A stretch of 64,000 nucleotides of DNA, taken from assembly GCA_030141605.1 (NCBI GenBank), contig JAQGDQ010000394.1, positions 1 through 64,000 on the forward strand, written 5' to 3'. Position numbers and translations under genes: made by a program. This DNA comes from Tubiluchus corallicola (taxonomy: Eukaryota; Animalia; Priapulida). The notes beneath the pieces are model-generated. The model did no database searches. It saw only the letters and a program-made list of their open reading frames with translations, and had not been told where the DNA came from. The number at the start of each line of letters is the position of its first letter. Positions within the stretch are counted from its first letter, which is position 1. Positions 26,886-54,619 of this stretch are shown here, in pieces.

Positions 26886-27023
26886 ATGTACACAATTCTG
26901 GGTTCACACTGTGAAATCTGTGTTGAGGATGTACAAAAATCTGCGTTCACACTGTCAAAGTTGTGTTGAGGATGCACAAAAATCTGCGTTCACACTGTGA
27001 AAGCTGTGTTGAGGATGTACAAA
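26886..27023 (+). repeat. 43-bp tandem repeat x3 spanning the collagen-1 start codon
   Basis: ATG(T/C)ACA...TGTGTTGAGG units starting at 26886, 26929 and 26972; the fourth ATG at 27015 opens the signal peptide. Confidence 0.9.
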
Positions 27024-30000
27024 GCTGACAAGAATGTTTTAATAATGACATTCGTGTTTTTGCTGTTGATCATGTTAAAGTCAGCGCTTTGCAAGTGTAA
27101 GTATTGATAGCTTTACGCAGCTTAAGATTTTTCCGAATACAGTGGACTCTCGTTATAAGAATCACCTCGGGAGAAGGCAAAGTGATTCTTATAACAAGCG
27201 ATTCTTATAACGAGCATGACACAGAATTGCTTTAAAAATTTTTTATGCACATAAAAATTATTTATTTCCCGAAATTACGCTAGAAACGACATGAAACAGC
27301 ATAATGTTTTTCTGGCCTAAAAAGGACCTAAAAACTACTAGACTAATGTTTTCATTTCATGGTTGGGTAAATATTTCATGATGCCAGAATTGCCTTAAAA
27401 ATTTTTTAATGCACATAATTTTTTTTCCGCCACGCCCACTGCGCAGAACCTTGTAAGCAGGGCGTGAGAGACAATGGAGTTGGCGCCAAAATTGATTCTA
27501 CTATCGAAAGAAGGGTGATTCTTATACGAGCGGATTTTCACTAGGAAAATGCCGAATCAATTCGGGAAACGCGATTTTGATTCCTATATCGAGCTGATTC
27601 TTATACGTGTGATTCTTGTAACGAGAGTCCACTGTATACTGTTAGTTTTCTACTTCAGTTGTTCAACATTTTGCAAAAAAAATAATGAAATAATAAAATC
27701 AAGTTAAATTAACAATTTTGTGAATTGATTTTAACACGTTTTTGCTCAGGCTCAGCTCTACGACTAGGTAAACTAGGCTGTTTCCTAGGACGCTAGGTTT
27801 TGGGGGCACCAAATTCTAGAAGATTTTTTAGTTTTTAAATTTAGTAGAGCATAGGATGTGTAATTCGTTAAGTGCACTAGAACAATTTAATAAAACAACC
27901 AGTTGCACTATTTTCCCGTGGAAAAGTATGATTCGTCAAAGCCAACAAGTTTCTTCCGGTGGAGAAACACAGTAAAGAGGAATTGTGTTAAATGATGATT
28001 CTGAATAAATGCTTTACAAGAAGCCTAGTTAGGCGTGGCATCACGTGACCAGCCGATCTTCGATTTTATTGACTGACTCATGCTGGCGAAACCCATATGC
28101 GCAGAAGCCCACGGCGCATTAGAGAAGCCACACCTCTGGGAATTCTAGGAACTGACTCGGAGAGAGGGCTGGCATTACTATCCTATGATTATGATATTTA
28201 CTGTGTTGTGTTTAATGTCTAATAAATGTGTTGCTCCTTAACTCGAATCTTGATAGTTTTGCCTTGCCCGTCGTGGCTACTCACCCGCCACGCTTTAAAC
28301 AACAGTAATCAGACAGCAGCTTTAACCATAAAATAAACAAACAGCAGAACTATTTTACTAACACTCTATTTTTACTTATCTGGTTTCCTAAGACTACATC
28401 AGTTCACGTTGACATTAATGACGCGTTCCCAATCTATCTTCAACAGTTTCTATATGAGTGCTTATAGTGCGACCCTTCTGTTAATAAAAAAAATTTCTTA
28501 CAACAGCATTAAATCTAATTATGGCAGATAAGAATCAAAGTCTTCAGGACAGATACAGTAAACGAAAAGTAAAACGCTGGCGAGTCATACAGAGAACAAC
28601 CGGCAACAATTTCAAAGTCAGTTAGCACAAAGTTGTAGATTTTATTTAGTATGCTATATTACATGCGCAAGCCACAGGTACCATTACACTTTATTATAAT
28701 ATTATACAAGAAAAATTCAATATCGGCAGCCTGGTGGGGACCATAGGGAGAAGGCTTTGGCCGTTGAGGAGGGGCGCTAAAATGCTTTTGCTTAGGGCGT
28801 TAAACTACTCAAAGCTGGCCCTATTTTTGCTTGTATTTCATTAGATACTTTGAGAAATTAGTAAATCAACTTATGTAGTGTAAGAACATCAAATTTCGTA
28901 TTTTTCGTGTTCTAAAATTTTAAGTTTCGCATACATAGCTTATGCAGAAGAAATTGCTTAACTCTTTTACCTGACATAATTACGTATTTGTTGGTATAAT
29001 AACTTGGCAATCGATGTTCTCTTATAGATTATCTGCCCAGCCCACTAAAATTTCCAGTGAGTGCAGGTCCACGTGGTCCACAAGGAAAGCAAGGTCGACC
29101 TGGAATTCCAGGACAACAAGGAGAGCCCGGCACAGAAGGCTTTTCTGGAAGAGATGGGACACCGGGACTACCTGGACCACCAGGGCCTATTGGCCCACCA
29201 GGACCAGAAGGGCCCGAAGGATCTCCTGGTTCCGTTGGACCACAAGGAGAACCAGGACTTCCTGGACTTACAGGGGAAACAGGACCCACGGGGGCAACAG
29301 GACCAATGGGAAAAGATGGCGATCCAGGCCCCATGGGATTACAAGGTGATCCTGGAGAAAAAGGTCTAGATGGAACACCTGGTGCCCCGGGACCGAGTGG
29401 TCCTCCTGGAAAACGTGGCTTCAGTGGATGGCCAGGAAAGGATGGTTATCCAGGGAAACCAGGTACGTATTATGTTTAATCATTGTGTTTCGTTTGTCAC
29501 GAATTTTTTTCGACGAAATCTGGTTTAGTCTTAAAATTCCCACACAAGTTTCTGCTTCTGGGCAGATGAAGGTTTCCAATAACTTCTGTGCCTCAGTTTT
29601 TTTCTAGAATTTTTCAAAATATCTCGCCTGTAGAGCTTTATTACTTTTCATTATATTATTACTAATATTATTGATCTATTGTTTTCACTTTTATATTTTT
29701 ATGCATGGCGACTAATCTGATTTTTCATTTTTTGCAACCGTTTTACGTTTGATAATTCCTCAACCCAGTGCAGCAAATACGGCGACTCTTACAAAAGTAA
29801 GTTTCATAAGTTTCAAAAAGCTTCAAAAATAACGTTTGCAGAAATGTAGCTTGTATTTTCAGACGTAACTTCTATTTTCAGACGTAGCTTGTATTTTCAG
29901 ACGTAGCTTGTATTTTCAGACGTAGCTTGTTTTTTCAGACGTAGCTTGCATTTTCAGACACAGCTTGTATTTTCAAACACAGCTTGTATTTTCAGACGTA

Positions 30001-54300: not shown

Positions 54301-54619
54301 CGTCAACAATTACGCAGCTGCGCCCTCTTCAGGGCAAAGAACAAAAATCTATGATCCCGAAAATGTGATGGGCCAGTATGCCAATAAAGAACTCGATATT
54401 ATAGACAGAAAACAGATCATACCGGGCTTACTCACTGAACACTCTGCTGAAATTGAAGCCAGACTGCGCCAGCGGCAACATGGTTCTGATAAAGTTGACG
54501 AATATCACAATTTAATGACTCAGAAACAGCGACAACAACAGCAGCAGCTGTCATCATGGTTACAATTTCAAAAGCATGAGCGGCAACGTCAACACGAATT
54601 ACGCTTACATAAAAATTAA
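51305..54619 (+). CDS. Short collagen-like protein, paralog 4 (chimera of paralogs 3 and 1; possibly decaying)
   Basis: Exons 51305-51395, 53060-53476 and 54231-54619 splice in frame (phase 1-1). The helix has two Gly substitutions (GFSERD, GNDCYP). Splicing must skip two broken exon-2 relics. Confidence 0.6.
51818..52232 (+). pseudogene. Two broken relics of paralog-3-type collagen exon 2
   Basis: 51818-52095: acceptor retained, internal deletion, frameshift at GGCCCCTGGGCCC, truncated. 52126-52232: second acceptor plus DCPPGPP start, truncated. Confidence 0.85.
52233..52558. repeat. 54-bp tandem repeat x6 at the chimeric junction
   Basis: TCTGGTTTCCTAAGACTACATCAGTTCACGTTGACATTAATGA...TTACCCA; present as a single copy at about 28379-28432. 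Confidence 0.93.

What the first reader, a model, noticed from the sequence alone, without database searches (positions are those of the whole stretch)
27015..54619. Tandem cluster of four short secreted collagens with an unrecognised architecture
Seen: four same-strand genes share one 3-exon plan (signal peptide / whole helix of 45, 53, 52 or 43 triplets / non-collagenous tail), giving ~300-340 aa proteins. Established: fibrillar, type IV, multiplexin, C1q, collectin and ficolin collagens end in COLFI, NC1, endostatin, C1q, lectin or FBG domains; minicollagens and nematode cuticle collagens have flanking Cys-rich motifs. None is visible here. Inference: a lineage-specific family for a specialised extracellular material (cuticle, tube, adhesive, egg case or silk-like fibre). 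Three diverged intact chains side by side could form a heterotrimer.
Basis: partly seen in the sequence, partly recalled or inferred. Interest (0 to 1): 0.85.

Follow-up and report, generated by a model that had tools for sequence, protein, structure and literature searches.

The report
Short collagens with orphan glutamine-rich tail
An invertebrate genome carries three old, intact genes (plus one damaged hybrid copy) for short collagens, predicted to be secreted, that end in a glutamine-rich domain my searches could not match; they likely form roughly 40-nm rods that would link charged partners in the matrix outside cells.

Summary
Four same-strand three-exon models splice in frame (294, 359, 316, 298 aa). 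Each has a signal-peptide-like exon, a one-exon Gly-X-Y helix and a 119-158 aa tail. A, B and C have perfect helices (45, 53, 52 triplets), diverged long ago and are under purifying selection.

D is not a fourth equal member. It is a recent copy of C carrying an A-derived helix segment, two lost glycines and two broken helix-exon fragments, so it is probably decaying.

The tail matched nothing in Pfam, PDB or 1.84 billion protein representatives. Its second half is predicted, with modest confidence, as a long Gln-rich helix.

New here: B and C keep a basic N-terminal patch and a 16-triplet basic/aromatic C-terminal block exactly 29 triplets apart, while the acidic middle drifts freely. This suggests a fixed-length tether or strut.

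No RNA was found. The taxon (priapulid-like) rests only on earlier unverified notes. Tissue, function and heterotrimer are untested. Verdict: a real, apparently undescribed, lineage-restricted short-collagen family; a new variant of a known kind.

The parts
27015..27096 (+). Gene A exon 1, signal-peptide-like, phase-1 donor
   Evidence: max KD11 3.2; only qualifying donor in 23800-29027
29028..29462 (+). Gene A exon 2: short linker plus 45-triplet uninterrupted helix (helix from 29066; last Gly codon split by the intron)
   Evidence: PF01391
29327..29462 (+). Gene A conserved C-terminal helix block (triplets 16-1 from the C end; Lys/Arg, Trp, Tyr, Phe)
34307..34674 (+). Gene A exon 3, orphan tail (119 aa, 22% Gln) and stop
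37392..37506 (+). Gene B exon 1, signal-peptide-like (alternative ATGs at 37416, 37461)
39074..39553 (+). Gene B exon 2: one Cys plus 53-triplet uninterrupted helix (from 39085); weak GTGATC donor
   Evidence: PF01391
39112..39156 (+). Gene B N-terminal basic patch (Arg-rich triplets 50-46), containing two RGRR motifs
39157..39417 (+). Gene B acidic spacer, 29 triplets
39418..39553 (+). Gene B conserved C-terminal helix block
40754..41238 (+). Gene B exon 3, orphan tail (158 aa, no Cys) and stop
   Evidence: DNA contig of run X4 covers it with 7 differences
43006..43096 (+). Gene C exon 1, signal-peptide-like, homologous to B exon 1
43550..44020 (+). Gene C exon 2: one Cys plus 52-triplet uninterrupted helix (from 43561); basic patch 43588-43623, 29-triplet spacer 43624-43884, conserved block 43885-44020
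44891..45279 (+). Gene C exon 3, orphan tail (126 aa, no Cys) and stop
51305..51395 (+). Gene D exon 1, recent copy of C exon 1 (27 of 30 codons give the same residue)
51818..52232 (+). Two broken, deleted or frameshifted copies of C's helix exon, each keeping a C-like acceptor, inside D intron 1
52230..52559 (+). 54-bp tandem repeat (6.1 copies) whose unit matches A intron 1 (28372-28435)
52496..53358 (+). A-derived segment in D (3' part of A intron 1 and 5' part of A exon 2); crossover to C-type sequence at 53358-53374, inside the conserved block
53060..53476 (+). Gene D exon 2: 43 triplets, with Gly replaced at triplets 10 (Glu) and 41 (Cys)
   Evidence: the Glu codon is also in an X4 contig with 0 differences
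54231..54619 (+). Gene D exon 3, tail 95% identical to C's

Best explanation
Genes A, B and C are old tandem paralogues under purifying selection that encode short uninterrupted collagen chains, predicted to be secreted and likely trimerised from their orphan C-terminal tail into 39-46 nm rods, whose two basic patches would bind polyanionic partners at a fixed distance. Shown by sequence: exon plan, perfect helices, selection on the tail and on two helix blocks, the charge pattern (basic ends, acidic middle), equal spacer length in B and C, and D's chimeric, damaged state. Inferred step 1 (about 85%): exon 1 is a cleaved signal peptide, and the many Y-position prolines (19-34 per chain) are hydroxylated. 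Inferred step 2 (about 65%): the tail, which starts with an aromatic stretch directly after the last triplet and ends in a long Gln-rich helix, selects and aligns three chains and nucleates C-to-N folding, as C-terminal domains do in most collagens. Inferred step 3 (about 45%): the conserved C-terminal block and, in B and C, the N-terminal Arg patch bind sulphated glycans or the acidic middles of neighbouring rods. The 29-triplet middle (about 25 nm) is then a spacer selected for length, so the protein works as a strut or tether in a matrix, like ColQ but without its enzyme-binding domain. Inferred step 4 (about 35%): the single N-terminal Cys of B and C links trimers to each other, and the Gln/Tyr-rich tail offers cross-linking sites. 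D is likely a decaying by-product of recombination in the conserved block.
For: Helices intact in 3 of 4 genes. Tail dN/dS 0.195 (A/B) and 0.163 (B/C); A/C dS saturated. No blastn similarity between introns of different genes among A, B and C. C-terminal block, X/Y codons only: pN/pS 0.14-0.20, Fisher p 5e-6 to 3e-4. B/C N-terminal 7 triplets: 0.18, p 0.007. B/C middle X/Y: 0.82, p 0.17. In the B/C middle, identity is 18 of 56 in register against 15-19 of 56 when shifted, yet the length is identical. By contrast D and A, 5% apart, already differ by two one-triplet indels. Charges in B: 6 K/R and 0 D/E in the first 10 triplets, 0 and 18 in the middle, 5 and 3 in the last 10. Imino acids make up 24-33% of helix residues. 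AlphaFold2 gives tail A residues 54-116 as one helix with pLDDT 59-85 by block. Precedents: most collagens have a C-terminal trimerisation domain that nucleates C-to-N folding (PMC5126661, passages), and ColQ has two heparin-binding sites in its helix plus a proximal C-terminal trimerisation domain (PMC10671321, passages).
Against: No transcript or protein evidence was obtained, so splicing, secretion and tissue are inferred. The models of the tail are weak: mean pLDDT 44.7 and 58.6, with the conserved first 55 residues under 50, so its fold is not known. The Gln-rich helix has no clear heptad and could be disordered. The equal spacer length rests on one pair (B/C), and A's spacer differs (28 triplets from its GPQ triplet to the block, against 30 in B and C). 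The Arg patch also fits a convertase site (RGRR twice in B and C), which is a different function. For D, the C-derived 3' part still shows pN/pS 0.31 (p 0.015), which fits some remaining constraint, although the A-derived helix part looks neutral (1.25). B's second donor is weak; unspliced, B would stop shortly after the helix.
Confidence: 0.5

Rival explanations
1. The chains are bulk building blocks of an extracorporeal or cuticular material (cuticle, larval case, egg envelope, fibre), assembled as an A/B/C or B/C heterotrimer, with the tail as a propeptide or cross-linking domain.
For: Three diverged intact chains side by side, B and C in exact register. Sawfly silk is made of three small collagens with 60-62 contiguous triplets and unique flanks (PMC3790195, parts 1-2 of 4 read). 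Gln- and Tyr-rich tails are plausible cross-link donors (general knowledge). Earlier unverified notes suggest a priapulid, a moulting worm.
Against: A is 7-8 triplets shorter and lacks the N-terminal Cys and Arg patch. Strong residue-level conservation of two helix blocks fits binding sites better than bulk material. Pro is enriched at Y, unlike sawfly silk (4-8% at Y). No expression data.
Confidence: 0.25
2. They are highly diverged Cthrc1-like or C1q/collectin-like soluble signalling or immune proteins: N-terminal Cys for oligomers, collagen stalk, and a C-terminal recognition domain whose sequence has drifted beyond detection.
For: Cthrc1 has the same plan: signal peptide, 4-54 triplets, 130-150 aa C-terminal domain, an intron at the 5' region of that domain, tandem duplicates, and up to 9 genes in Priapulus (PMC7058181, section 8 and passages). 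B and C have one N-terminal Cys. C1qA proteins appeared as weak hits to the conserved block (E 0.18, 0.62).
Against: The Cthrc1 domain is described as highly conserved and predicted to be a beta-sandwich, whereas the tail here found 0 hits at E<=0.001 among 1.84 billion representatives. It has 0-1 Cys, is 13-22% Gln, and got no beta-strands in either weak model. No C1q or lectin Pfam match (control). The C1qA hits lack the block motif.
Confidence: 0.1
3. The exons belong to one long, alternatively spliced collagen gene: all helix exons are phase 1-1, so they could be chained.
For: Frame-compatible junctions. Earlier unverified notes report many alternative-exon arrays in this genome.
Against: Each unit has its own signal-peptide exon and its own stop-containing terminal exon in 1-2-3 order, and each tail is under purifying selection. 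Remnants of an opposite-strand gene lie between C and D.
Confidence: 0.04
4. D is not a tandem paralogue but a divergent haplotype of C assembled beside it, or, at the other extreme, a functional fourth chain.
For: C/D divergence is only 3.8-6.7%, against about 0.3-2% between run X4 contigs and the window. The D frame is open, and its 3' part shows pN/pS 0.31.
Against: X4 holds D-specific contigs with 0 differences and also C-type contigs. The sequence between C and D (46070-50485) is not repeated in the window. Against function: two Gly losses, a neutral-looking 5' helix, and two decoy acceptors ahead of the real exon 2.
Confidence: 0.2

Closest known systems
Cthrc1 family (PMC7058181; passages and sections 8 and 11 read; supplements not read)
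   Same: Signal peptide, single short helix of variable length (4-54 triplets), 130-150 aa C-terminal domain, intron near the start of that domain, tandem duplicates; present in Priapulus.
   Different: The Cthrc1 domain is highly conserved across animals and predicted to be a C1q-like beta-sandwich. The tail here has no detectable relative, is Gln-rich, and its second half is predicted helical.
ColQ, collagenic tail of acetylcholinesterase (PMC10671321; passages read)
   Same: Works like: a short helix carrying two basic (heparin-binding) sites, followed by a C-terminal domain needed for triple-helix formation.
   Different: No N-terminal PRAD region here (the helix starts 4-14 residues after the predicted signal peptide), no Cys-rich distal domain (ColQ Cys content recalled), and no tail similarity detected.
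Sawfly silk collagens SfC A-C (PMC3790195; parts 1-2 of 4 read)
   Same: Three small paralogous collagens with one uninterrupted helix and lineage-specific flanks; evolved independently.
   Different: 60-62 triplets, Pro rare at Y and no Hyp, Gly-rich repetitive flanks. Here 45-53 triplets, Pro at Y in 19-34 triplets, and a conserved non-repetitive tail.
Nematode cuticular collagens (PMC7852208; passages read)
   Same: About 300 aa, 37-43-triplet main helix, RxxR motif (here in B and C).
   Different: They have an extra N-Pro helix, three Cys knots, usually interruptions, and a long N-terminal region. None is present here; the RGRR motifs lie inside the helix.
Collectins, C1q, adiponectin and type VIII/X short-chain collagens (architecture recalled; Pfam controls)
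   Same: Short helix, N-terminal Cys (B, C), C-terminal non-collagenous domain; collectins have a helical neck (PMC5126661 passage).
   Different: No C1q, lectin or fibrinogen domain.

Membership tests
Collagen-like (triple-helix) proteins | Long (Gly-X-Y)n with high imino content | tested here: met
   45/53/52 perfect triplets, 24-33% Pro, PF01391 above cut-off
Collagen-like (triple-helix) proteins | Forms a triple helix and is secreted | not testable with these tools
   Only hydropathy of exon 1; no signal-peptide predictor and no biochemistry
Cthrc1 | Signal peptide + single CTHR + 130-150 aa C-terminal domain | tested here: met
   tails 119-158 aa; definition
Cthrc1 | Conserved intron at the 5' region of the C-terminal domain | tested here: inconclusive
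   A phase-1 intron sits at the helix/tail boundary; the exact Cthrc1 position and phase are in a supplement I did not read
Cthrc1 | Sequence homology to the highly conserved Cthrc1 C-terminal domain | tested here: inconclusive
   0 hits at E<=0.001 in 1.84 billion representatives and none in Pfam argue against, but no Cthrc1 sequence was available as a positive control
Cthrc1 | C1q-like beta-sandwich fold | tested here: inconclusive
   Models are low-confidence; no strands predicted, second half helical
Nematode cuticular collagens | [quoted passage not shown] | tested here: not met
   At most one Cys before the helix and none right after it; definition
Nematode cuticular collagens | Separate N-Pro helix and long N-terminal (Col_cuticle_N) region | tested here: not met
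   One helix only, starting within 4-14 residues of the signal peptide; PF01484 fires on control P0008 but not on the three helix exons scanned with it
C1q / collagen VIII-X / collectin / ficolin | C-terminal C1q, C-type lectin or fibrinogen domain | tested here: not met
   No such Pfam match in 4 of 4 tails at E<=1; PF00386 fires on controls P0007 and P0011
Fibrillar, type IV, multiplexin collagens | Hundreds of triplets and a COLFI, C4 or endostatin/trimerisation domain | tested here: not met
   45-53 triplets; no Pfam or PDB sequence match in the tails
ColQ | N-terminal PRAD | tested here: not met
   No room or motif before the helix; domain list
ColQ | Two heparin-binding sites in the helix | tested here: inconclusive
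   Two basic patches in B and C; binding untested
Sawfly silk collagens | Pro rare at Y; Gly-rich repetitive flanks | tested here: not met
   Pro at Y in 19 of 45, 34 of 53 and 29 of 52 triplets; flanks not Gly-rich; definition

The most novel reading that the evidence does not exclude
The tail is a new structural class of collagen trimerisation and chain-selection domain, and B/C(/A) form a heterotrimeric molecular-ruler collagen that spaces two polyanionic layers about 25 nm apart in the body wall of a priapulid-like worm: an independently invented short cuticle-type collagen in an early-branching moulting animal.
Probability: 0.22. Interest if true: 0.75.

Novelty: new variant of a known kind. 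Interest (0 to 1): 0.48.

Why it matters
Only a handful of collagen trimerisation-domain classes are described (type IV NC1, C1q-type, multiplexin, fibrillar C-propeptide, coiled coil, type IX NC2; PMC5126661 passages). A cysteine-free 120-160 aa tail that folds and registers a 45-53-triplet helix would add a class and could be a handy tool for recombinant collagens. Three natural paralogues with conserved ends and a freely drifting, length-fixed middle are a clean test of whether helix length itself is under selection. If the animal is a priapulid, the family bears on whether short apical-matrix collagens arose more than once among moulting animals. If none of this holds, it is one more lineage-specific collagen-like family.

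Tried and rejected
No whole genome was held, so copies elsewhere in the genome were not counted.

Expression. Five runs were listed for 38900-45300. The three small-share RNA or RNA-guess runs X1-X3 matched only microsatellite and Gln-codon repeats when laid, so they say nothing about expression or habitat. X5 laid nothing on D. X4 behaves as DNA (contigs run through introns, no splice joints) and may or may not be independent of the window's sample. No X4 contig specific to C's exon 3 was listed, and exon A was never laid; missing cover proves nothing.

Tail relatives:
- Word search of 281-2000 aa proteins: 0 of 7984 candidates; the near and shorter length classes were not searched with the tail.
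- HMMER over 1.84 billion representatives: 0.
- JGI metagenomes: 0 of 106 pattern matches confirmed; 0 exact matches to a block pattern.
- PDB sequences: 0 at E<=10 for tail B; 5 chance-level rows (E 0.29-8.3) for the profile.
- ESM Atlas: RIB43A coiled-coil look-alikes at 0.88-0.90, with low recognition and only 153-164 shared features, rejected; best 0.76 for the Gln-free core.

Conserved-block search in 105-336 aa proteins: 7 of 34 candidates at E<=1, all nematode cuticle collagen, collagen X or C1qA, none with the block motif. Longer proteins were not searched with the block. Viral contigs gave 80 kept of 256 generic Gly-X-Y matches, 0 of 80 with the block motif, and two weak tail alignments (E 0.03) taken as chance.

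Fold searches with the weak tail-A model gave 1 row at E 9.5 and only generic long helices at Z<=6.3; the first 45 residues were barely tested.

A three-copy complex job on tail B returned no answer (score 0.00, alignment not used, partner fold uncertain); it counts neither for nor against.

Taxon: a search with the neighbouring class C GPCR gave one unnamed hit at 36%, uninformative.

Literature: 10 searches (0-30 papers each, seen as listings except the six papers opened). None described this family, but the library lacks most subscription papers. PMC5011709 (one passage) was uninformative.

In one search my coordinate for D's second decoy acceptor was 2 nt off, so that translation was discarded and one search used instead.

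Rejected ideas: hydroxylysine cross-linking as in fibrillar collagen (Lys at Y in only 1, 1, 0 and 0 triplets); gene conversion as the main cause of block similarity (block dS 0.74-1.29).
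Full report
Observation. A six-frame scan found four long Gly-X-Y runs on the + strand (29066, 39085, 43561, 53098) and three short ones at 51924-52223. The longest run in 20 shuffled windows was 2-4 triplets. Splicing by coordinates gives four open three-exon models, A 294, B 359, C 316 and D 298 aa, with eight phase-1 GT..AG introns. The first exons were checked independently. A scan for ATG, hydrophobic stretch and phase-1 donor found exactly one qualifying donor upstream of each of A, B and C, and two upstream of D. 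B and C exon 1 share 31 of 46 nt, reached by 0 of 20000 shuffles. The third exons are mutually homologous (51-63% identity to tail B), and no further copy lies in the window. B's second donor is weak. All splicing is inferred, since no RNA covering the genes was found.

A, B and C are real, old genes. Their helices are perfect (45, 53, 52 triplets; 24-33% Pro). Introns of different genes share no blastn similarity. Synonymous sites in the tails are near or at saturation, while dN/dS is 0.195 (A/B) and 0.163 (B/C). A DNA run, X4, holds B's helix end and tail with about 1% differences; it may or may not be independent of the window's sample.

D is different. Its upstream region, exon 1, intron 2 and tail are 3.8-6.7% from C, while its intron-1 end and the first two thirds of its helix exon are 5% from A. 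Informative sites switch from A-type to C-type between 53358 and 53374, inside the conserved helix block. Two broken copies of C's helix exon remain in its first intron with C-like acceptors. Use of the first gives a 119-aa product that leaves the Gly-X-Y frame; use of the second gives a short broken helix running into a 54-bp repeat and a stop near 52752. D has lost Gly at triplets 10 and 41, and the first change is also in an X4 contig with no other difference. Its A-derived part looks neutral (3 synonymous, 10 non-synonymous changes; pN/pS 1.25), but its C-derived part does not (0.31, p 0.015). I read D as a likely decaying chimera. A haplotype of C, or a weakly functional gene, is not excluded.

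Internal anatomy of the helix. Aligned without gaps from the C end, the last 16 triplets are nearly the same in all chains (25-27 of 32 X/Y positions, against 4-9 when shifted) and carry Lys/Arg, Trp and Tyr, plus Phe in A, C and D. Selection holds when Gly codons are removed (pN/pS 0.14-0.20, p<=3e-4). Block dS of 0.74-1.29 argues against recent conversion. B and C also share an Arg-rich N-terminal patch (13 of 16 positions; pN/pS 0.18, p 0.007). Between the two blocks both have exactly 29 triplets whose X/Y residues are no more alike in register than shifted (18 against 15-19 of 56; pN/pS 0.82). Whole-triplet indels arise readily here (two between A and D at 5% divergence), so the equal length suggests selection on length, though it rests on one pair. 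The middle is acidic (18 D/E and no K/R in B). At 0.286 nm per residue the rods would be 39, 46 and 45 nm. B and C have one Cys before the helix and two RGRR motifs inside it; A has neither.

The tail. It is 119-158 aa, has 0-1 Cys and is 13-22% Gln, rising to 24-42% in the last 55 residues. It opens with an aromatic stretch directly after the last triplet, tolerates a 0-27 residue insertion, and then has a conserved core. It matched no Pfam family above noise (controls), no PDB sequence and none of 1.84 billion cluster representatives at E<=0.001. AlphaFold2 on four sequences is weak (mean pLDDT 44.7 and 58.6); only a long C-terminal helix in tail A has fair confidence, and no strands were assigned. 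A four-sequence profile has limited reach, so 'orphan' means undetected, not unrelated.

Mechanism. Shown: gene structure, selection, charge pattern, register. Inferred: secretion and prolyl hydroxylation; trimer nucleation by the tail, by analogy with most collagens (PMC5126661, passages); binding of polyanions or of neighbouring acidic middles by two basic patches held at a set distance, by analogy with ColQ's two heparin sites (PMC10671321, passages); and higher-order linking through the lone Cys and the Gln/Tyr-rich tail (general knowledge). I put this strut or tether reading at about 0.5. A bulk cuticle or fibre heterotrimer gets about 0.25, a diverged Cthrc1 or C1q-like soluble protein about 0.1, and one long gene about 0.04.

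Comparison. Cthrc1 shares the plan, the size range, an intron near the start of the tail, tandem duplication and occurrence in Priapulus, but its tail is highly conserved and predicted to be a beta-sandwich (PMC7058181, passages and sections 8 and 11). Its supplements, which hold the intron position and alignments, were not read and bear on this test. Nematode cuticle collagens need Cys knots and an N-Pro helix (PMC7852208, passages), absent here; the best hits to the conserved block were such collagens, collagen X and C1qA, none with the block motif. Sawfly silk collagens are the best precedent for three small independent collagens but differ in Pro placement and flanks (PMC3790195, parts 1-2 of 4). 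Ten literature searches listed nothing describing this family; the library is incomplete.

Organism. The window is an intron-rich, 36% GC animal sequence. Earlier unreviewed notes on the same genome suggest a priapulid or relative; I could not test this.

Verdict. A real, apparently undescribed, lineage-restricted family of short collagens with an orphan Gln-rich tail: three intact members and one damaged chimera. It is a new variant of a known kind. The fixed-length, two-patch design and a possible new trimerisation domain are the parts worth following up. Interest 0.48.

Noticed in passing
window 47029-47319 and 48602-49207, minus strand: Two ORFs of an apparent secreted or membrane protein between C and D: a signal-like start with Cys and leucine-rich-repeat-like text, and a Cys-cap-like motif followed by a hydrophobic helix. 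No convincing Pfam match; LRR label is my reading.
   Followed up: partly
window 11472-12956 +, with 10331-11203 + upstream: Long single-exon class C GPCR-like 7TM region (PF00003, E 2e-15) with only one relative found (36%, unnamed); the upstream ORF may be its ectodomain.
   Followed up: partly
window 20992-21915 and about 23630-23810 +: Kruppel-like (KLF-type, my reading) C2H2 zinc-finger gene; the first ORF starts with an 11-residue tandem repeat.
   Followed up: no
window 15580-16211, minus strand: Tc1/mariner-like transposase remnant (DDE_3, E 9e-12).
   Followed up: no
window 31495-32517 + and 18341-18682 -: LINE-like retroelement ends (my reading; no Pfam match), the first inside A's second intron and flanked by a 65-bp duplication at 31627-31691 and 32740-32804.
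   Followed up: no
window 26886-27023: A 43-bp tandem repeat (3.2 copies) whose last copy supplies gene A's start codon.
   Followed up: no
window 29847-30589 and 35313-36749: 19-bp (39 copies) and 37-bp (39 copies) minisatellites in A's intron 2 and between A and B.
   Followed up: no
window 43880-44360: A 571-nt X4 contig matches C here at 98% but its first 90 letters do not fit C; it may be another A/C-type recombinant allele.
   Followed up: no
window 45654-46070 versus 58292-58552 and 60225-60382: The C/D duplication extends downstream of D in pieces, 92-95% identical.
   Followed up: no
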